This document shows positions 37,275-44,574 of a stretch of 44,578 nt of DNA, one piece after another; the stretch's first letter is position 1, and every line of letters starts with the position of its first letter. The notes below the pieces were generated by a model. The model made no database searches. It saw only the letters and a program-made list of their open reading frames with translations, and had not been told where the DNA came from. The position numbers and the translations under genes are program-made. The stretch lies in NCBI GenBank assembly GCA_026776125.1, contig GCA_026776125.1_4343.1; one strand, written 5' to 3'. The DNA is from a phage.

Positions 37275-37687
37275 TGGGCTACTTTGAGGACTTAACAAAA
37301 GCGTTTGATGTGCCGCTGGTAGCCTTCGGAACCGCCAACGGCATCAAGGTCGCGCTTGAAAACATCGACGCGCCGACGTCAACCGATACGCCGTATCTGG
37401 CGAGTTACATGCTACTAGCGGATACCGAGCAGGCTGATTTGTTCTTTACGGAACAACGCTCTGGTATTTATCAGGTCGACATTAACTACGCATCGGCGAA
37501 AGGTAGCGCGGAAATCAATAAAATGGCAGACTTACTTAACACGGCGTTTAAAGCAGGTAAGTCATTTTCACGTAACGACATCTGCGCCGAGGTTCAATCG
37601 GTTAGCCTGGGGCCGCTGATTGTAGAAAACGTATGGGCCAAACGGCCATTGTCAATTAACTTTATAGCATTCACCAAGAGGCTGTGA
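37271..37687 (+). CDS. Putative tail terminator protein
   Basis: Synteny, immediately before major tail protein. Confidence 0.3.
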   Translation: MMGYFEDLTKAFDVPLVAFGTANGIKVALENIDAPTSTDTPYLASYMLLADTEQADLFFTEQRSGIYQVDINYASAKGSAEINKMADLLNTAFKAGKSFSRNDICAEVQSVSLGPLIVENVWAKRPLSINFIAFTKRL

Positions 37688-37689
37688 AT

Positions 37690-38856
37690 ATGGCTACAAC
37701 TCCTTTTAAGGGCGCGAATACCGCGCAATTCTATGTGGCGGAAGTGACCCCGGGCGTAACACCGGCTAACCCGGTATGGTCGCCGTTGCGCAACACGGGC
37801 GGCGTTCCTGCCATTACCCGCGACACGCTGACCTCCAACGAACTCGACGGCAGCCGTGAAACTACATCCATCCGCACCGGTAACAAACAGGTTAGCGGTG
37901 AATACGCAATTGAGCTTAGCTCTAAAAGCCAGGATGACTGGTTGGCAGGTGCTTTAGGCTCTACGTGGCAATCCGGTGTTTCTCTGTCAGGACTATCGAT
38001 CACCGTCGCACCCGCGGGCAAGACGTTCACACGCGCTACCGGCAGTTTTATCACTGACGGAGTTGGGGTAGGCGACCTGATTGCGTTTACCGACTTAACA
38101 GGCGATAACGCAAAACCATTTATTGTTACCGCAGTAACGGCTACGGTTGTTACTGGTGCGGGCATCCAACACACCCTGACCACCGAGACAAAAACTAGTA
38201 AGGCTAAAACTGGCGACACGTTGGAAACCGGTAACACGTGTAAGACGTTCTCTATCCTTACCTGGTACAAAGGCCAGTGCGGCGGTACTGACGCGTACAC
38301 GTTAACCAAAGGCGTGGAAGTTTCTGGTTTTACCATCGAACAGGCTGTTAACGCGATGGTAACTGGCAGCTTCCCATTCATCGGTCGCAGTCAGGAGATT
38401 CTCACTACGCCGCCGACCGGTTCCAACTTCTCATCTGTTACTTTTGGTGATGAGCCGTTCTCTTCGGTTGACGTTTCCGTGTTCGACGGCTCTACGCCGT
38501 TGCGTTGCGACAGTCTGACTATCACCAACGATAACAGCGCGTCCGCGCAGTTTGAACTTGGTAACACTAACGTAGCGTTTGTGGAGCGTAGCCGTGCAGC
38601 TAACACCTTCTCCATCTCCGGTAAGCTGTATGACATGGCGATGATTCAGAAGTTTATCAACGAGCAGCAGGTAGAGATTAACTCTATTCTGGCAGGGGTA
38701 AACGGGGCTATGTCTTTCAGTTTGAAACGTGCAGAGCTTACGGCGGTTACACCTGAGATTGGTGGGCCTGAGTCAATCACTCAGTCCATTGAAGGCCAGG
38801 CTACCGGCAATCAGTACCAGTCGTCTATCGTAATTCAACGTATCACCTACGCATAA
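37690..38856 (+). CDS. Putative major tail protein
   Basis: 389-aa ORF preceding the chaperone and tape measure genes; RBS AAGAGG; followed by strong terminator. Confidence 0.5.
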   Translation: MATTPFKGANTAQFYVAEVTPGVTPANPVWSPLRNTGGVPAITRDTLTSNELDGSRETTSIRTGNKQVSGEYAIELSSKSQDDWLAGALGSTWQSGVSLSGLSITVAPAGKTFTRATGSFITDGVGVGDLIAFTDLTGDNAKPFIVTAVTATVVTGAGIQHTLTTETKTSKAKTGDTLETGNTCKTFSILTWYKGQCGGTDAYTLTKGVEVSGFTIEQAVNAMVTGSFPFIGRSQEILTTPPTGSNFSSVTFGDEPFSSVDVSVFDGSTPLRCDSLTITNDNSASAQFELGNTNVAFVERSRAANTFSISGKLYDMAMIQKFINEQQVEINSILAGVNGAMSFSLKRAELTAVTPEIGGPESITQSIEGQATGNQYQSSIVIQRITYA

Positions 38857-38860
38857 AACT

Positions 38861-38886
38861 AAGGCCCCTTTCGGGGCCTTTTTCTT
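38861..38886. terminator. Bidirectional hairpin terminator (aaggcccc-tttc-ggggcctt + TTTTCTT)
   Basis: 8-bp stem between convergent major tail gene and minus-strand cassette. Confidence 0.65.
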
Positions 38887-39439
38887 ACAAACCTAATTTT
38901 AAAGCAATGTCTATAACGTTCGATTTAACGTCACCCGGTATGATGTAGGTGTCGTAATCTTTTACACCACTAACATCGTACAGATAGCCACGGCTATCGC
39001 AGATGAACGTATAGCCGTCACGATGGAGGCGGACGATTCGCACGTCATGCCCCGCGGCGACGATAGGGGCAACTTCACTGGCGAATCCACCGTCGGACAC
39101 TACAAAAACTTCGTCGCCGTCAGGCAAGTTTTCAGCAAGATACTTACCGAAATAATCATCGCCGAATACCGGTTTAATGAATTGCTCAGAAATGGCAATC
39201 ATTAACCGGCGGCGGGACAACCCATTAAGAAAACCCTCGGGTTTTTCTTTCCGCGCCCGGTCGTCGTAGCCGTCGAGAAATTCGTGGTAAGCATCCTGGC
39301 CTAACGCTGCCAAAGCAATATTGAACATTGGGTTCTTGAAACTGGTAGTTCCTTTCGCAAAGCCCATTTCTACCAGCGCCATAGCAAGCGTGTCTTTCCC
39401 GCAACCCGCAGGGCCATTAAGAATAATTACCTTAGCCAT
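38885..39439 (-). CDS. P-loop nucleotide kinase, dNMP-kinase-like
   Basis: Walker A GPAGCGKDT at N-terminus; overall resemblance to phage deoxynucleoside monophosphate kinases (by eye, unverified). Confidence 0.55.
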   Translation of the reverse strand: MAKVIILNGPAGCGKDTLAMALVEMGFAKGTTSFKNPMFNIALAALGQDAYHEFLDGYDDRARKEKPEGFLNGLSRRRLMIAISEQFIKPVFGDDYFGKYLAENLPDGDEVFVVSDGGFASEVAPIVAAGHDVRIVRLHRDGYTFICDSRGYLYDVSGVKDYDTYIIPGDVKSNVIDIALKLGL

Positions 39440-39927
39440 TATTTATTGCTCCCGTGTGGTTTTAAGTGTGTAGAGTTCCCGTTACAGTCGTATTCGGTAA
39501 CTGCGTGTGCGGTTATGCCGAGGTCACGGAAATGCTTTATTACCGCTGGGGAGTCGTCGAACGCACACAAGATTCTTTCCAGTCCGAAAGCACGCAACAC
39601 CTCTTCTTTAATTACGATGTCTTTTCTGTTGTCGTGTTTGCTGCGCATGATTAGCGTGTCAAACCTAACGTTATTCTCTCGTAACCATTCGCGAGTCTCC
39701 TCCTCAGCGTCATCACTTCGCCCGGTAAGGATAATTATAGTAAGTCCGGAATGCCACAGTACGCTACACAAATGGATATTGTCGTATATCGGAGCGTCAT
39801 CTTTGCAGGCCATGTTAAATGGCTTCCACGCCCACGTTTCTCCGTAGTTATCTTTTGGTAACAGGTGTAAGCGATGGGTACCGTCGGCCAATGTCCCGTC
39901 TAAATCGAAAATTACAATATCTTTCAT
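39439..39927 (-). CDS. HAD-superfamily phosphatase, resembling the 3'-phosphatase domain of polynucleotide kinase-phosphatase
   Basis: HAD motif I IFDLDGTLA at N-terminus; further motifs TGR and RKDIVIKEEVL...FDDSP. Confidence 0.55.
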   Translation of the reverse strand: MKDIVIFDLDGTLADGTHRLHLLPKDNYGETWAWKPFNMACKDDAPIYDNIHLCSVLWHSGLTIIILTGRSDDAEEETREWLRENNVRFDTLIMRSKHDNRKDIVIKEEVLRAFGLERILCAFDDSPAVIKHFRDLGITAHAVTEYDCNGNSTHLKPHGSNK

Positions 39928-41054
39928 CCCAGCATCTCCGGTGAAATAGTTAAACGTGCGACCTCGCCATATTCGGCGCTATAAGTAATTACATTTGCAC
40001 TGCGGCCCGACATCCATCCGCCGTGAGAGGCGTAGGCGTCTTTAGCCGCTAAGGTGCGGTGTTGCTCAACAATCATGTTACGGCTTTCTACAATCTTCTG
40101 GTGGTGCAGATGGCCTACGTGGGCGTAGCTGTAAACACTCTCGCCGAACGCTTTACGGAACTTGGCAATCATAACCGGTTCGATAGCGTCGAATCGTGCT
40201 TTATGCCCGTGATGGAAGAACAGCGTCGTTTTGCCGTGTTGCACCATCTTGTAAACATCCGGCGACGTATCAACAATCACTCGGCTGTCGTTTGAGTATA
40301 AAACCGTGAACATTTCGGCAAGCCATACGGAGCCAACAGGGTCGTGGTTACCTTGAACGATTAAAAGTTTTACTGTGTGATGCTTAACCAGCGCCATATC
40401 AACAACACGGCGGACCATACGAATCATGTAACGTACCAGTTTCTGATAGCGAGTATCCGCATCTAATACATGGCGCGACTCGGGGGTAACGGCATCAAGA
40501 CTATCGAAGTGTGCGAAGTCCCCAAGCAGGTTAATAACTCCTGTTCCTGCATCCGGTGCTTTCTGAAACGCCGCGTCGAACCACCGAGAGAACAGGTCTT
40601 CTGCAATCTTCATGTCCCAGTCGTCGCCGCTCTCATCGGCCCATGCCAGCATACCGAGATGGAAATCAGATACAGTGTAAAGATTGAGTAGCTTGTCGTC
40701 ACGTTTGGCGCGCGCCGCTTTAACAGGCGCAACGGGCGTAATCTCTGACTTCATGCCCTCTATTACGGCTTTCATCAATTCAACCTGACGTTCGGCGTCG
40801 GTATCAGTCTTAACCCATTGCAACTTAGTGTTGCCGAACTCGTCCACAAGTGACGACGTTCCTTTAATCTTGTAGCCGTCTGGCACAAGGTGGCTAACGT
40901 CGCGCCCGTGGCCCACGCCTTTCTTAGCCAGCTTCGCTTTACGGATACGAATTACGCGGTCTGAGATGCCGTATTTACGGGCGATATCTACATTCTTCAT
41001 ACCGGCGTTCAATTCTTCCTGCAACTGTTCGTCGGTTATTTTCTTCCGGGCCAT
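39924..41054 (-). CDS. Calcineurin-like metallophosphoesterase with N-terminal HTH domain
   Basis: HTH-like N-terminus (VDIARKYGISDRVIRIRK); phosphoesterase motifs SDFHLG, GDFAHFD, GNHD, HHGH, GHLHH (Mre11/SbcD-like pattern). Confidence 0.55.
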   Translation of the reverse strand: MARKKITDEQLQEELNAGMKNVDIARKYGISDRVIRIRKAKLAKKGVGHGRDVSHLVPDGYKIKGTSSLVDEFGNTKLQWVKTDTDAERQVELMKAVIEGMKSEITPVAPVKAARAKRDDKLLNLYTVSDFHLGMLAWADESGDDWDMKIAEDLFSRWFDAAFQKAPDAGTGVINLLGDFAHFDSLDAVTPESRHVLDADTRYQKLVRYMIRMVRRVVDMALVKHHTVKLLIVQGNHDPVGSVWLAEMFTVLYSNDSRVIVDTSPDVYKMVQHGKTTLFFHHGHKARFDAIEPVMIAKFRKAFGESVYSYAHVGHLHHQKIVESRNMIVEQHRTLAAKDAYASHGGWMSGRSANVITYSAEYGEVARLTISPEMLG

Positions 41055-41091
41055 GTTTATTCCTCGTGCTTAGGATTTGTCCTATACTAGC

Positions 41092-41283
41092 TCACTTCTC
41101 TTTGACATTCGAGTTGCAAGCCCAGATTAAAATAAATACCCACGGCAGCAGAACCCATCCAAGAAACAGATTAGCCATGAATATCGCTAATTTCGCTTTA
41201 TGGTCGCGCATATGCGCCACGAGAAATGGAGTAAAATAAACTAAAACGATAATGATTAAGAAGAACATAGTAATACCCGTCAT
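41092..41283 (-). CDS. Small membrane protein (63 aa)
   Basis: ATG at 41283 with RBS AGGAG; two hydrophobic helices (ITMFFLIIIVLVYFTPFLV and FLGWVLLPWVFILIWA); ORF-track entry 41092..41421 starts too far upstream. Confidence 0.45.
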   Translation of the reverse strand: MTGITMFFLIIIVLVYFTPFLVAHMRDHKAKLAIFMANLFLGWVLLPWVFILIWACNSNVKEK

Positions 41284-41324
41284 GGTGTAGCTCCTGTTTG
41301 GGATAACATCGTTGGTGTAAGTGA

Positions 41325-41353
41325 ATAGTACACTATTATATTGGGGTGTGCAA
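41325..41353 (-). promoter_or_regulatory. Promoter-like element, class II (TTGCAC-N17-TACTAT on minus strand)
   Basis: Near-identical to 32092 copy; about 40 nt upstream of 41283 start. Confidence 0.5.
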
Positions 41354-41460
41354 GTAATGTGATAGAATAATTTTGCGCCTAGTGTCGCACACGAAAAGCG
41401 GGTGGTTCCCGTCTGGCGCATTAACCTTAACCCGTAACCTCTTAACCAAAGGATTAAAGA

Positions 41461-41877
41461 ATGAAACTTTCTGATTTTTATTACGAAGCTGAGGCAGAAA
41501 AAGGCGCCCGTATGCCGATCCCACTGAAAGACGGCACCGATTCAGGGGAGTGGCTGAACGTTGTTTCACCGGAGGCAGACGTTGCGGTTAAAGCCATGCG
41601 TGCATTTACCCTGGCGTACCGCGCGTCGTTAGGTAAACTGAAGCCGCTTCGTGATAAATGCGAGGAACTGAAAGATTTCTCGGAATATAACATTAAGATG
41701 GAAGACGCCGCGACGGACCTTAACCGCCAGTTAGCACTTGAACTGGTTAACGGTTGGAGTCTCGACGATGAATTTAATAAAGAGAACCTGAATACTCTTT
41801 TTTCACAATATAAACGCCTCGCTGAACACGTTGTTGTTTTCCACAACGAACAGCTTCACCAATTGCAGGAAAAGTAG
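41461..41877 (+). CDS. Tail assembly chaperone (G-like)
   Basis: 138-aa ORF immediately before a -1 frame ORF and the tape measure gene. Confidence 0.5.
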   Translation: MKLSDFYYEAEAEKGARMPIPLKDGTDSGEWLNVVSPEADVAVKAMRAFTLAYRASLGKLKPLRDKCEELKDFSEYNIKMEDAATDLNRQLALELVNGWSLDDEFNKENLNTLFSQYKRLAEHVVVFHNEQLHQLQEK

Positions 41878-42242
41878 ACGCGTTGCTCCAGTTTGCCCGT
41901 TGGAACTTCATAGCCCGCCACAAACGGCGGGAGTTTGACAGTATTGCCGACGGGCATAAAGCCGCGCTAATTGCTATGGGGGTTATGCAAGATGCGCCGG
42001 AAGCAACGCAGGACACCGGGCCGGAATGCCCCCCTGAACTATTAACCACCTTCGAGAAGTACCGGGAAATCAAATTTACCCGCCGAGTGGATGACGATGG
42101 CATCAAGATGTACCCGCGCGAACAGTTAAGATGGTCGGATTTAGTGGCATACAGCACCGTTTCAGGCCAGAATATAGGCATGTTTGAATCTGACATCATC
42201 ATGAGCTTAGACGCTATTTTCGAGGGTAGAAACGATGGCTGA
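41826..42242 (+). CDS. Tail assembly chaperone frameshift extension (T-like), expressed via putative -1 frameshift
   Basis: -1 frame open from 41826; overlaps end of 41461..41877; ends with ATGA-type overlap at tape measure start. Confidence 0.4.
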   Translation, partial: TRCCFPQRTASPIAGKVDALLQFARWNFIARHKRREFDSIADGHKAALIAMGVMQDAPEATQDTGPECPPELLTTFEKYREIKFTRRVDDDGIKMYPREQLRWSDLVAYSTVSGQNIGMFESDIIMSLDAIFEGRNDG

Positions 42243-44574
42243 TGTAGCTAGTTTAGTTGTAAAAGTATCAGAGCAAGGCGCGAAAGCTACATCAGACCGT
42301 CTTGATAACCTTTCCAAGTCTGCAAAGGTAGCCGGAGCTGCGGTAGCTGGCCTTGCTTCCATCGTCGCCGCTACCGCGTACAAGGCCGCACAGGAACTGG
42401 TAGACTCCCAACGGCAACTGGACAAGATGTCCGCCAGCCTGAAAACACTAACCGGAAGCACGCAGGGTGCAAGACAGGCGTTAAGCATCCTGCAAGACTT
42501 CGCGCGCGACACCCCGTATGGTCTTGAACAGGCGGTAGAGGGATTCCGTAAACTGGTGGCTCTCGGCCTTACACCGTCAGAAGAAGCGTTGCGCTCCTAT
42601 GGCAACACTGCCGCTGCTATGGGTAAAGACCTTAATCAGATGATTGAGGCTGTTGCGGATGCAAGTACGTTTGAATTTGAGCGCCTTAAAGAATTCGGCA
42701 TCAAGGCTAAGCAGAACAAAGACGATGTTGAATTTACATTCCAGGGCACTACTACGGTGGTTAAGAAGAGCGCTGCCGATATCGAGCAATACCTGCTCAA
42801 CATTGGTAACGTAAACTTCGCTGGGGCTATGGCGGACCAGGCTAACACACTTAACGGGGCCATAGCCAGTGCCAGCGACTCATGGTCGCAGTTAAAAATG
42901 ACACTGGCTACCAGTCTTGATGTTGGTGCGCTCGCCGAACCTATCCGATACATCGATGATTTAATCCAGGAACTTAACGCACAGGTTGCATCCGGTGAAC
43001 TTGCCGCAGAGATGCGTATGTGGGGTGACATCGCGTCGGAAGTAGGAAGCGCGATAGAGATGTCGTTCGACGCGGCATTTGGTTTTGTAGGTGACGCGAT
43101 AAATGGACTGAATGAACTTTGGGATTTTAGCAGTAAAAGTATCACCGACAGCGGCGAACAAACGGCGACAACCATCGCGGAATCAGCAGCCGATGCGCTC
43201 GATTTCATCGCGGAAGAATTTACCGCGATGGAGCGCTTCTTTGAAGATATGGTTAAAGGGGCGCAGGACGCTGGCCGGTTGGTGAAAGCAGCCTTCACAC
43301 CAGGGGAATCTGTAGACGTAGCAAAAAACATTAACTTCCAGCTAGGGATGGCACTGGATACTCAGCGCGATGTTGCGGACCTGACCCGTAAAAGTTTCCG
43401 CGAACAGGTGGAGGCTCAGCAAAATATCGTCGCGCTTAAACGCGCGGCATATGACATCGACAAAGAAGCCGCTAAGGAAGAAGGGCTTAGTAAATTTAAG
43501 GTAACTGGTACTGGTGGCGGGTCCGAAGATGATAATGCTGGTGCAAAAGCCGCCAAGAAAGCTGCGGACGCGTTCGAGCGCCAGAAGAAAGCGGCGGAAG
43601 ACTTCTACTATCAGTCAATCCATCTTAATGATGACGTATTTCAGAAAATAGAAGCTAACCAGGAAGAGCAACTATCTAAGTTGCAGGATTTCTATAGCAA
43701 TAAGCTTCTTAGCGACCAGCAATACGAAAACGCCAAGACGCAGATTATGCTCTCTGCCGAACAGGCCCGCCAGGAAGAACTGGATAAGAAAAGGAAGGAG
43801 GCCCAGGAGAAGCAACAGAAAGGTGATGATTTCATGGCTCAGATTATGGGCCAGAACGCTACTGAGCTTGAGCTTCTCGACATCCAGGAACAGCAGAAAC
43901 TGGCGGTAGCCGATAAGTACCGTGAGCAGGGTCTTATTAGTGAGAAGCAGTATCAGGCCGCGCTTAACGCCATCAATGATCAATACGCAACCAAGCGTGC
44001 CGACGCAACGGCAACCGCCTTCGGTAACATGGCCTCAAACATCGGGTCTGCGTTGGGCGAGGCCTCTGGTGCGTATAAGGCATTCGCTATCGTACAGGCC
44101 ACCATAGCCACTTACACCGCGGCTATCGAGGCGTACAAGTCCACGGCGGCTATCCCTGTAGTTGGCCCATTCCTGGCTCCTGTAGCTGCTGCCGCTGCCG
44201 TTGGGGCGGGTATGGCTCAGGTTTCCGCTATCAGGTCAGCACGTGAACAGGGCGGTCAGTTATCAGCGGGACAGGCTTCCACCATCGCCGAGCGCGGAAA
44301 ACCAGAAGTTATCATGCCTGCGGGTGCATCGCGTGTGCGCACCGCGCAGCAGATGAAAGAAATTATGGGGCAAAACGGCGGCAGTACCGGACCAGCCAAT
44401 ATCAGCATTATAAATAACACCAGTGCACAAATTGGCAACACCAGCGTTGAACAGGACGAAGAAGGCCGCCTACGTATCATCATCGAAGAACAGGTAGCCG
44501 CCTCTTTGCAGAATAGCAACAGCAAAATATCGAAAGCGAGGAAGGCTACAAGAAACGCACCGGGCTTTAAGTAG
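42235..44574 (+). CDS. Tail tape measure protein
   Basis: 779-aa alanine/glutamine-rich largely helical protein after G/T chaperone pair. Confidence 0.75.
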   Translation: MADVASLVVKVSEQGAKATSDRLDNLSKSAKVAGAAVAGLASIVAATAYKAAQELVDSQRQLDKMSASLKTLTGSTQGARQALSILQDFARDTPYGLEQAVEGFRKLVALGLTPSEEALRSYGNTAAAMGKDLNQMIEAVADASTFEFERLKEFGIKAKQNKDDVEFTFQGTTTVVKKSAADIEQYLLNIGNVNFAGAMADQANTLNGAIASASDSWSQLKMTLATSLDVGALAEPIRYIDDLIQELNAQVASGELAAEMRMWGDIASEVGSAIEMSFDAAFGFVGDAINGLNELWDFSSKSITDSGEQTATTIAESAADALDFIAEEFTAMERFFEDMVKGAQDAGRLVKAAFTPGESVDVAKNINFQLGMALDTQRDVADLTRKSFREQVEAQQNIVALKRAAYDIDKEAAKEEGLSKFKVTGTGGGSEDDNAGAKAAKKAADAFERQKKAAEDFYYQSIHLNDDVFQKIEANQEEQLSKLQDFYSNKLLSDQQYENAKTQIMLSAEQARQEELDKKRKEAQEKQQKGDDFMAQIMGQNATELELLDIQEQQKLAVADKYREQGLISEKQYQAALNAINDQYATKRADATATAFGNMASNIGSALGEASGAYKAFAIVQATIATYTAAIEAYKSTAAIPVVGPFLAPVAAAAAVGAGMAQVSAIRSAREQGGQLSAGQASTIAERGKPEVIMPAGASRVRTAQQMKEIMGQNGGSTGPANISIINNTSAQIGNTSVEQDEEGRLRIIIEEQVAASLQNSNSKISKARKATRNAPGFK

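What the first reader, a model, noticed from the sequence alone, without database searches (positions are those of the whole stretch)
41826..41877. Putative programmed -1 frameshift joining the tail assembly chaperone ORFs
ORF 41461..41877 ends at TAG while the -1 frame is open from 41826 to 42242, the conserved G/GT arrangement before the tape measure gene. A candidate slip site is G GAA AAG at 41868-41874 just before the stop (tRNA-Lys slipping AAG to AAA); an alternative is the GTT GTT GTT TTC run at 41830-41841.
Basis: partly seen in the sequence, partly recalled or inferred. Interest (0 to 1): 0.45.

Follow-up and report, generated by a model that had tools for sequence, protein, structure and literature searches.

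The report
Phage tail-chaperone frameshift with long-range RNA helix
This E. coli phage almost certainly makes a second, longer tail-assembly chaperone by slipping the ribosome back one base on the last lysine codon of the first gene, an expected phage trick, but the signal is an unusual minimal one that appears to be boosted by a conserved RNA helix whose two halves lie about 120 bases apart.

Summary
ORF G (41461-41877) ends at TAG, and the -1 frame is open from 41826 to 42242, overlapping the tape-measure start.

The window is a Kagunavirus. Two close relatives already carry a GenBank/RefSeq joined CDS with exactly the junction ...LQEK|VDALLQF. Another group wrote that there is "no canonical slippery sequence".

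Comparison of 92 distinct relatives, down to 43% identity, puts the shift on the terminal NNA_AAG (window G_GAA_AAG, 41868-41874).
- A_AAG is invariant at synonymous sites, while the codon before it varies.
- The -1 overlap is as short as 7 nt.
- -1 frame protein conservation starts exactly at K-V-x-A-L.
- TTG 41883 is CTG in most lineages.

The GTT run is rejected.

New here: exactly 5 nt after AAG lies an invariant GCGYUG. It pairs with a complement 129 nt downstream of the stop (window 41880-41889 with 41999-42009) or 203 nt downstream in the sister lineages. Support comes from compensatory changes, from synonymous-site conservation peaks, and from a strongly non-random fold (z -4.5).

Best reading: a lambda-type G/GT -1 frameshift on a minimal A_AAG site, stimulated by a long-range closing helix, with the stop codon in the spacer. 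The frameshift itself is ordinary. The signal architecture looks undescribed. Nothing has been tested experimentally.

The parts
41461..41877 (+). Gene G: 138-aa tail assembly chaperone, the zero-frame product, ending in TAG
   Evidence: ORF listing and translation. Pfam Phage_TAC_4 at 34.2 bits against a cut-off of 21.1. PHROG 15027 and PHROG 313 'tail assembly chaperone'.
41868..41874 (+). Shift site G_GAA_AAG. The conserved core is A_AAG (41871-41874), where tRNA-Lys re-pairs from AAG to AAA.
   Evidence: All 92 distinct relatives have an in-frame A_AAG here. The preceding codon varies (GAA, GCA, GUA, GGA, CAA). The A at -4 and the G at -1 are invariant third positions. The -1 overlap is as short as 7 nt.
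41875..41879 (+). 5-nt spacer UAGAC, containing the zero-frame stop codon (41875-41877)
   Evidence: The spacer is 5 nt in all 92 sequences. It reads UAG or UAA (never UGA), followed by A or C, in 91 of them. In one lineage the stop is one codon later, but the 5-nt spacing to the helix is kept.
41880..41889 (+). 5' arm of the long-range helix P1 (GCGUUGCUCC). It includes TTG 41883, which some annotators use as a start codon.
   Evidence: GCGYUG is invariant, including two wobble positions. It is paired in the MFE and centroid fold. Pair probability is about 1.0 in contexts up to 520 nt.
41890..41998 (+). Enclosed domain, predicted in this phage as two arms of a three-way junction. Arm 1 is 41894-41903 with 41947-41956, carrying an apical hairpin 41914-41919 with 41926-41931. 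Arm 2 is 41964-41967 with 41994-41997.
   Evidence: Fold of 41875-42015: -60 kcal/mol, z = -4.46, 0 of 200 shuffles as stable. The interior stems are not conserved outside the Kagunavirus/Jerseyvirus clade, so this is a lineage-specific prediction only.
41999..42009 (+). 3' arm of helix P1 (GG-A-AGCAACGC, with A42001 bulged), lying in a variable protein linker of T
   Evidence: CA[R]CGC is invariant in group 1 although the encoded residues vary (AT Q, TAQ, AAR, PAQ...). R covaries with the Y of the 5' arm (CG 18, UA 14, none unpaired). Four pairs show compensatory changes. RNAalifold finds the helix independently.
41874..42242 (+). T segment read in the -1 frame after the slip: first codon GTA at 41874, 122 aa, stop TGA at 42240-42242
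   Evidence: Translation. Pfam Phage_TAC_18 at 67 bits. PHROG 4557 and PHROG 15027 positions 135-259. Conservation of K-V-x-A-L starts at the junction.
42235..44574 (+). Tape measure protein gene (779 aa). Its ATG overlaps the T stop (ATGGCTGA).
   Evidence: PHROG 1538 at E = 2e-205. ORF list. The overlap is conserved in relatives.

Best explanation
Genes G (41461-41877) and T (-1 frame, to 42242) form a lambda-type G/GT tail assembly chaperone pair, expressed by programmed -1 ribosomal frameshifting.

**Zero-frame product.** Most ribosomes end at TAG 41875 and make the 138-aa G protein.

**The shift.** A minority slip back one base on the last sense codon. Host tRNA-Lys (anticodon UUU, the only lysine tRNA in E. 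coli) leaves AAG (41872-41874) and re-pairs with AAA (41871-41873). The tRNA-Glu on GAA can re-pair only partly, with GGA. Reading then continues GTA GAC GCG TTG... and yields a 260-aa GT fusion with the junction ...LQEK-VDALLQF...

**The stimulator.** The site is a minimal A_AAG (hexanucleotide NNA_AAG) motif, which is weak on its own. I infer that it is stimulated by an RNA helix whose 5' arm starts exactly 5 nt after AAG (41880-41889). Its 3' arm lies about 120 nt downstream (41999-42009). The helix closes a folded domain, so its G+C-rich base sits at the ribosome's mRNA entrance when GAA and AAG occupy the P and A sites.

**The stop codon.** The zero-frame stop lies inside the spacer. It may add a pause, acting as a 'shifty stop'. 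It also means that non-shifting ribosomes never traverse the enclosed domain.

**Shown here:** the ORF geometry, the homology, the conservation of the site, and the conserved base pairing.

**Inferred:** that slippage occurs, how efficient it is, and that the helix and the stop stimulate it.
For: **Gene identities and public annotation**
- Geometry and translations are confirmed.
- G is Phage_TAC_4, T is Phage_TAC_18, and PHROG 15027 spans both frames with the join at profile positions 135-138.
- The window is 99% identical to Kagunavirus phages.
- A joined CDS is annotated in fFiEco03 and in Serratia phage Smarc3.
- The exact fusion with the junction QEK|VDAL equals QNO11663.1 and YP_010748927.1. 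Junctions placed further upstream are absent from the database.

**Comparative evidence for the shift site**
- In 92 distinct sequences down to 43% aa identity, G ends in A_AAG, the -1 frame continues for about 120 aa to the tape measure start, and the +1 frame never does.
- The -1 overlap is as short as 7 nt.
- Third positions -4 and -1 are invariant.
- -1 frame protein conservation begins at the junction.
- There is no conserved start codon.

**Evidence for the helix**
- The complement sits at a fixed place in 91 of 92 sequences.
- Group 1 is 90.6% paired, against 17-47% in slid controls, with 4 compensatory pairs and 0 of 500 shuffles reaching the covariation score.
- Group 2 is 94.4% paired, against 18-51% in slid controls, with 3 compensatory pairs.
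- RNAalifold predicts the helix on its own.
- The window fold has z = -4.46, and pair probability is about 1.0 in larger contexts and in most lineages.
- An unbiased scan of third-position entropy puts the minima on the slip site with the 5' arm, and on the class-specific 3' arm.
- The 5-nt spacing is kept even where the stop moved.

**Literature**
- A_AAG is the best -1 tetramer in E. coli. It is near background alone and reaches 5.6% with a 3' pseudoknot (PMC4066793).
- NNA_AAG sites are used in Bacillus cdd and in IS1222, and the lambda G:GT ratio is about 30:1 (PMC5009743).
- Typical spacers are 5-9 nt, and IS911 uses a three-way-junction stimulator.
- The stability of the first 3-4 bp determines frameshift efficiency (shown for HIV-1; PMC3561942).
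Against: - There is no protein, ribosome-profiling or reporter evidence for this phage or any relative.
- G_GAA_AAG is not a canonical heptamer. One published annotation of a 96%-identical phage states there is no canonical slippery sequence (PMC6776780).
- A 6-10 bp helix closing about 110 nt is an unusual stimulator. Its interior is not conserved across the family.
- In 4-5 lineages the thermodynamic model prefers other partners.
- One lineage (L141/L142) has a degenerate helix.
- Much of the covariation in group 1 separates a few clades, so the number of independent events is small.
- The helix could serve another purpose.
- In the window itself, an AGGA sits 12 nt before TTG 41883, so some independent initiation cannot be excluded.
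Confidence: 0.75

Rival explanations
1. The -1 frameshift occurs at A_AAG, but the long-range helix is not its stimulator. The shift would be driven by the lysine tRNA's slipperiness plus the pause at the adjacent, weak-context stop codon (P-site slippage with an empty A site). The helix would serve something else, such as mRNA stability, masking the spurious TTG/AGGA start, or pacing translation before the tape measure gene.
For: The stop is immediately adjacent in 91 of 92 sequences. It is always UAG or UAA followed by A or C, although TGA makes up 38% of stops in this genome. The 5' arm covers TTG 41883. The interior of the domain is not conserved.
Against: Lineage L075/L128 moved the stop by one codon yet kept the exact 5-nt distance from AAG to the helix. 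The helix base is invariant G+C-rich sequence at the distance expected for an entrance-channel stimulator. A_AAG alone is near background in E. coli.
Confidence: 0.15
2. There is no frameshift. T is made as a separate 119-aa protein starting at TTG 41883, using AGGA (41867-41870) as its ribosome binding site, possibly by re-initiation after termination at TAG.
For: Several GenBank records annotate it this way. AGGA lies 12 nt upstream of TTG. The Shashou paper found no canonical slippery sequence.
Against: - TTG is CTG in most lineages, and annotators of Bas70 and AG11 had to call a CTG start.
- Six lineages have no ATG, GTG or TTG in the first 35 codons.
- The residues V-x-A upstream of that Leu are conserved in the -1 frame.
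- The TTG lies inside a helix with pair probability about 1.
- The 12-nt spacing and the TTG codon are both poor for initiation.
Confidence: 0.06
3. The frameshift happens further upstream, at the GTT GTT GTT TTC run (41830-41841), with tRNA-Phe slipping from TTC to TTT.
For: In this window the -1 frame is open from 41826, and U_UUC is a moderately shift-prone tetramer in E. coli.
Against: The run is not conserved: relatives read GTT GTT GTG TTT or GTA GTC GTA TTC. In many close relatives a -1 frame stop lies between it and the G stop, leaving overlaps of 25-28 nt. -1 frame residues upstream of K-V are not conserved. The deposited fusion sequences use the terminal site.
Confidence: 0.02

Closest known systems
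Phage lambda G/GT (and the conserved tail assembly chaperone frameshift of dsDNA tailed phages)
   Same: Two overlapping ORFs lie immediately upstream of the tape measure gene. [quoted passage not shown] One relative here (L059) even reads G_GGA_AAG.
   Different: The site is not a full X_XXY_YYZ heptamer. The P-site codon varies and often cannot re-pair. The stop codon directly abuts the site. A conserved downstream helix is present, whereas from memory lambda needs no 3' structure (Levin et al. 1993; not checked here). G is separated from the tail tube gene by four leftward genes.
A_AAG tetranucleotide / NNA_AAG hexanucleotide -1 frameshift sites (Bacillus subtilis cdd A_CGA_AAG; IS1222 G_CGA_AAG)
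   Same: The shift is carried by single-tRNA-Lys slippage on A_AAG, with little or no P-site re-pairing. The 5' codon ends in A and its identity varies.
   Different: It is used here for a phage chaperone. The 5' codons are GAA, GCA, GUA, GGA or CAA rather than CGA. The candidate stimulator is a long-range helix plus an adjacent stop codon. From memory, cdd uses an upstream Shine-Dalgarno-like sequence.
IS911 frameshift stimulator (three-way junction 3' of A_AAA_AAG)
   Same: Both are bacterial -1 frameshift signals in which a closing helix of a branched structure starts a few nucleotides after an AAG-ending shift site. The window folds as a three-way junction.
   Different: There is no sequence relationship. 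Here only the closing helix is conserved. The enclosed region is 109-190 nt of coding sequence, and the 3' arm sits at two different places in two clades.
Long-distance frameshift stimulators (barley yellow dwarf virus 4-kb pairing; the T7 gene 10 effect more than 200 nt downstream)
   Same: Sequence far downstream of the shift site contributes to the signal.
   Different: In those cases a local stem-loop kisses a distant loop, or the mechanism is unexplained. Here the distant sequence forms the 3' strand of the very helix that abuts the shift site.

Membership tests
G/GT tail assembly chaperone pair with programmed -1 frameshift | Two overlapping ORFs directly upstream of the tape measure gene, the second in the -1 frame and lacking its own conserved start | tested here: met
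   Geometry. The tape measure gene is identified. The -1 extension of about 120 aa is conserved in all relatives, while the +1 frame is never long. No start codon is conserved.
G/GT tail assembly chaperone pair with programmed -1 frameshift | Sequence homology of both parts to tail assembly chaperone families | tested here: met
   Phage_TAC_4 and Phage_TAC_18 both score above their cut-offs. PHROG 15027 covers both parts. No relative with a solved structure was found by sequence.
G/GT tail assembly chaperone pair with programmed -1 frameshift | A shift-prone site near the 3' end of G that is conserved among relatives | tested here: met
   A_AAG is invariant in 92 sequences, including at synonymous positions.
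G/GT tail assembly chaperone pair with programmed -1 frameshift | Gene order tail tube - G - T - tape measure | tested here: inconclusive
   G and T directly precede the tape measure gene. The tail tube gene (37684-38856, Phage_tube_2) is separated from G by four genes on the opposite strand.
G/GT tail assembly chaperone pair with programmed -1 frameshift | The GT fusion protein is actually made, at a few percent of G, and is needed for tail assembly | not testable with these tools
   Only annotations exist. No proteomic or genetic data were found in the paper library.
Canonical X_XXY_YYZ heptanucleotide slippery site | Both the P-site and the A-site tRNA can re-pair in the -1 frame | tested here: not met
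   In G_GAA_AAG, GAA re-pairs with GGA, leaving a G:U at the middle position. Relatives with C_GCA_AAG or A_GCA_AAG cannot re-pair at all. Only 1 of 92 sequences has G_GGA_AAG.
A_AAG tetranucleotide / NNA_AAG hexanucleotide -1 site | In-frame A_AAG decoded by a single tRNA-Lys(UUU), with a variable 5' codon ending in A | tested here: met
   Motif counts. The hosts of the isolates are E. coli, Salmonella and Serratia. The window carries no phage tRNA genes. That E. coli has a single tRNA-Lys comes from the literature.
3' RNA-structure-stimulated -1 frameshifting | A stable helix begins 5-9 nt after the shift site and is evolutionarily maintained | tested here: met
   The spacer is 5 nt in all sequences. 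Covariation and slid controls. Fold z = -4.46. Pair probabilities. Synonymous-site minima.
3' RNA-structure-stimulated -1 frameshifting | Disrupting the helix lowers frameshifting and restoring it rescues frameshifting | not testable with these tools
   This needs reporter assays.
'Shifty stop' (a stop codon next to the shift site enhances slippage) | The zero-frame stop lies immediately 3' of the slippery codon, and its identity and context matter | tested here: inconclusive
   The stop is adjacent in 91 of 92 sequences. It is only UAG or UAA, followed only by A or C. One lineage has the stop one codon later, and the next base is also constrained by T coding. The concept is recalled from Weiss et al. 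1987 and was not read here.

The most novel reading that the evidence does not exclude
A whole family of enterobacterial siphophages would express GT from a minimal A_AAG site. The family includes Kagunavirus, Jerseyvirus, and relatives such as Bas70, AG11 and Smarc3.

Their efficiency would be set by a previously undescribed stimulator: a G+C-based helix that starts 5 nt after the site. Its 3' strand lies 129 or 203 nt downstream of the stop (about 110-190 nt enclosed), inside the T coding sequence.

The 5' strand is frozen as GCGYUG. The 3' strand was relocated once in evolution, from +203 to +129 or the reverse.

The zero-frame stop sits in the spacer, so terminating ribosomes never enter the enclosed domain.
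Probability: 0.5. Interest if true: 0.6.

Novelty: new variant of a known kind. Interest (0 to 1): 0.45.

Why it matters
**Annotation.** Hundreds of Guernseyvirinae-like phage genomes, many of them therapy candidates, split this gene pair into a 'hypothetical protein' or call a CTG or TTG start. The conserved signature NNA_AAG-UAR-NN-GCGYUG gives a rule for annotating the 260-aa GT product. It also gives frameshift predictors a case they miss, because they search only for runs and heptamers.

**Mechanism.** This is a natural test bed with built-in evolutionary controls for three questions:
- how a minimal tetranucleotide site reaches useful efficiency;
- whether a helix closed over 110-190 nt can act at the mRNA entrance channel;
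- what an abutting stop codon contributes.

The controls are two alternative 3' arms, a lineage with a displaced stop, and a lineage with a decayed helix.

The frameshift itself is expected biology and would surprise no phage biologist.

Tried and rejected
- **Short-window RNA folds.** RNAalifold on alignments ending 115 nt after the stop gave only -5.5 and 0 kcal/mol. I nearly concluded there was no structure. The alignments simply stopped short of the 3' arm.
- **A helix to the AAL codons.** I tested pairing between GCGYUG and the GCGC of the AAL codons (columns 103-108). There was no covariation, and it did no better than shuffles. Rejected.
- **Upstream Shine-Dalgarno stimulator.** AGGA abuts the site in this clade but is absent elsewhere (for example AACGCAAAG), and it is too close for -1 stimulation. 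Rejected as a conserved element.
- **Transcriptional slippage.** The run is only four A's. Rejected from established knowledge.
- **Interior stems of the window's domain.** The stem 41894-41903 with 41947-41956 and the others are not conserved beyond the clade. I keep them as predictions only.
- **Databases.** Rfam, NCBIfam and PDB sequence search returned nothing useful.
- **Literature.** The Xu et al. 2004 and Anany et al. 2015 papers are not in the library. Searches for Kagunavirus or Jerseyvirus frameshift papers found only the Shashou announcement.
- **Not attempted.** I ran no protein structure prediction and no large homology search, because the family assignments were already clear.

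Full report
**1. What is in the sequence**

- ORF 41461-41877 encodes 138 aa and ends CAG GAA AAG TAG.
- The -1 frame carries TGA at 41823-41825. It is then open from 41826 to TGA 42240-42242.
- The 779-aa tape measure gene starts at ATG 42235, overlapping that stop.
- Neither motif is a canonical X_XXY_YYZ heptamer.
- An in-frame A_AAG is common in this genome, with 26 occurrences. The motif alone proves nothing.

**2. Identity of the genes and what is already public**

The window is a Kagunavirus (Guernseyvirinae) siphophage of E. coli. It is 99% identical across this region to phages BUCT823 and HSE2.

Family assignments:
- G matches Pfam Phage_TAC_4.
- The -1 product matches Phage_TAC_18.
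- PHROG 15027 is a 259-position 'tail assembly chaperone' family. G aligns to its positions 1-138 and the -1 frame to positions 135-259. Fused proteins are therefore already in public collections.

Public annotation is inconsistent:
- fFiEco03 carries a joined CDS labelled 'frameshift product'.
- An exact-sequence look-up shows that the fusion ...LQEK-VDALLQF... is QNO11663.1, QNO11812.1, YP_010748927.1 and YP_010749081.1. Fusions joined further upstream are not on record.
- XY1 and Shashou instead annotate a separate TTG-start ORF.

**3. Where the shift happens**

I collected relatives from IMG/VR, metagenomes and GenBank phages. This gave 92 distinct sequences down to about 43% amino-acid identity.

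- In all of them G ends with an in-frame A_AAG.
- In 91 of them the stop follows directly.
- The -1 frame always runs about 120 aa to the tape measure start. The +1 frame never does.
- The -1 overlap is only 25-28 nt in many close relatives, 16 nt in some, and 7 nt in L077 and L080. That leaves only the last two codons as a possible site.
- The codon before AAG varies: GAA 67, GCA 17, GUA 6, GGA 1, CAA 1 (counts derived from the heptamers). The base before that codon also varies. P-site re-pairing is therefore not conserved.
- The A at the wobble position of that codon, and the G of AAG, are invariant in 21 lineages that are less than 90% identical. Ordinary third positions in the same region have about 1.3 bits of entropy.
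- In the -1 frame, residues upstream of the junction are unconserved, and one lineage has a stop there. Conservation starts abruptly at K-V-x-A-L-(Y/L/F).

The GTT GTT GTT TTC run is not conserved. In many relatives it is also cut off by a -1 stop, so it is rejected.

TTG 41883 is CTG in most lineages. Annotators of Bas70 and AG11 had to call CTG as the start. Six lineages have no ATG, GTG or TTG in the first 35 codons. An independent start is therefore not the conserved way to express T.

**4. How the site compares with known sites**

- A_AAG is the best -1 tetranucleotide in E. coli. It is essentially at background without a stimulator (0.15% against 0.11%) and reaches 5.6% with a 3' pseudoknot (PMC4066793).
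- NNA_AAG hexanucleotide sites operate in Bacillus cdd and in IS1222.
- E. coli has a single tRNA-Lys, which favours AAA over AAG (PMC5009743).
- The phage encodes no tRNA.
- Lambda needs G and GT in a ratio of roughly 30:1.

A stimulator is therefore expected for this minimal site.

**5. The stimulator candidate**

*First attempts failed.* Short-window consensus folds found nothing. However, the six bases GCGYUG starting 5 nt after AAG are invariant, including the wobble bases of an Ala and a Leu codon.

*A complement at a fixed place.* Searching each lineage for complements showed a perfect partner at a fixed position:
- at +129 from the stop in one set of lineages, which includes the window (CAACGC at 42004-42009);
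- at +203 in the rest.

Of 92 sequences, 91 have one or the other: 46 at +129 and 45 at +203.

*The +129 class.*
- The 3' arm lies in a variable protein linker (DAPEATQD, SAQRTAQD, KKKRAARR...). Yet CA[R]CGC is invariant.
- The R covaries with the Y of the 5' arm: C-G in 18 sequences, U-A in 14, none unpaired.
- Three further pairs show compensatory changes.
- 90.6% of cells are paired, against 17-47% when the partner is slid.
- None of 500 shuffles reaches the observed covariation score.
- RNAalifold finds the helix unaided once the alignment reaches far enough.

*The +203 class.*
- The helix is 7-16 bp long, typically GCGCUGUAUGA with UCAUACAGCGC.
- 94.4% of cells are paired.
- Compensatory changes occur, for example in L091 (GCGCUGUUGAAA with UUUCAACAGCGC) and in L029 (UAC with GUA).

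*Independent checks.*
- An unbiased scan of third-position entropy over 450 nt puts the minima on the slip site with the 5' arm, and on the class-specific 3' arm.
- On a neighbour-joining tree of the conceptual GT proteins, the +129 class is a single clade. The 3' arm was therefore relocated once.

*In the window.*
- Segment 41875-42015 folds to -60 kcal/mol, with the MFE equal to the centroid. The z-score is -4.46, and 0 of 200 shuffles fold as well.
- The predicted shape is a three-way junction closed by 41880-41889 paired with 41999-42009.
- The helix keeps a pair probability of about 1.0 in contexts up to 520 nt.
- It has P of at least 0.48 in 26 of 31 lineages.
- Rfam has no such family.

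**6. Geometry and mechanism (inference)**

With GAA in the P site and AAG in the A site, the helix base is 5 nt beyond the A-site codon. That is the short end of the 5-9 nt spacer range, which places a stimulator at the mRNA entrance. The first base pairs are invariant G-C pairs, and in the HIV signal the stability of those first pairs sets efficiency.

Lineage L075/L128 moved the stop one codon downstream but kept the 5-nt spacing. This argues that the helix is coupled to the shift site rather than to the stop.

The stop may still contribute:
- it is nearly always adjacent;
- it is only UAG or UAA, although 38% of this genome's stops are TGA;
- it is followed only by A or C.

Those bases are also constrained by T coding, so I leave the stop's role open.

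A branched stimulator has a precedent in IS911, and unexplained long-range effects exist in T7 gene 10.

**7. Limits**

- There are no experimental data.
- The interior of the domain is not conserved.
- A few lineages have alternative partners: +87 and +115 in L052, L118 and L119, and +122 in L076.
- In L141/L142 the helix has decayed.
- The covariation rests on a modest number of independent clades.
- A more distant relative (L148, 30% identity) uses a canonical U_UUU_UUC 9 nt before its stop. This shows that the frameshift is older than this particular signal.

**8. Verdict**

The frameshift itself is expected and already annotated in close relatives. What is not described, as far as the available literature and Rfam show, is the signal:
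- a minimal NNA_AAG site;
- a stop codon inside a fixed 5-nt spacer;
- a conserved long-range helix with two evolutionary positions for its 3' strand.

Noticed in passing
window 38885-41421 (- strand): Four leftward genes sit between the tail tube gene (37684-38856) and G. They are a 184-aa kinase-like ORF, a 162-aa HAD-like ORF, a 376-aa metallophosphoesterase and a 109-aa superinfection-immunity-like protein. This breaks the usual tube-G-T-tape measure order. The names come from relatives' annotations.
   Followed up: no
window 42235-42242: The T stop and the tape measure start overlap as ATGGCTGA. The same overlap (GACGATGGCTGAT) is kept in relatives at 45-60% identity, which suggests translational coupling of the tape measure gene to T-frame ribosomes.
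   Followed up: partly
L052, L118, L119 (relative to their G stop: +87, +115, +129): These lineages carry two or three alternative 7-bp complements to the 5' arm, and the thermodynamic model prefers a partner other than +129. They may represent alternative or transitional 3' arms.
   Followed up: partly
L076, L131, L146 (+122 and +203): This +203-class lineage also has a 10-bp complement at +122 (GCGCAGCGCG). It is a candidate intermediate in the relocation of the 3' arm.
   Followed up: no
L141 and L142 (metagenome contigs PPYF01422658.1, OLHG01011002.1): This is the only lineage with an altered 5' arm (GCGCUC) and a decayed helix, with two mismatches and a duplex of -11 kcal/mol. It keeps G_GUA_AAG UAG. 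Its G gene also contains an upstream copy of AAAGCGCUGU.
   Followed up: partly
L075 and L128: The junction reads C_GCA_AAG UUA UAG CGCUG. The stop is displaced by one codon and overlaps the first base of the helix. The 5-nt distance from AAG to the helix and the -1 frame reading K-V-I-A-L-Y are both kept.
   Followed up: yes
L148 (JACCDQ011322710.1), about 9 nt before its G stop: A 30%-identical relative has the canonical heptamer U_UUU_UUC instead of A_AAG, and no GCGYUG arm. The -1 frame is open across it.
   Followed up: partly
L149 (Bas70) and L150 (AG11), locus position 710: Public annotations start the second chaperone ORF at a CTG codon. This is a sign that gene callers are forcing a start where the frameshift product should be annotated.
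   Followed up: yes
L024 / L031 (IMGVR_UViG_638275545_000001): In this contig the G reading frame is interrupted after 37 codons although the protein match continues. This is probably an assembly or sequencing indel.
   Followed up: no
window 41774-42202 (- strand): A 142-aa antisense ORF overlaps T. It has no support and is probably a by-product of the G+C-rich, structured coding sequence opposite. It beats G and T in a naive longest-ORF selection.
   Followed up: no
Jerseyvirus genus (L041-type versus L150 AG11): Phages placed in the same ICTV genus carry different helix classes (+129 versus +203) and chaperones only about 43% identical. This suggests the G-T module has been exchanged by recombination.
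   Followed up: no
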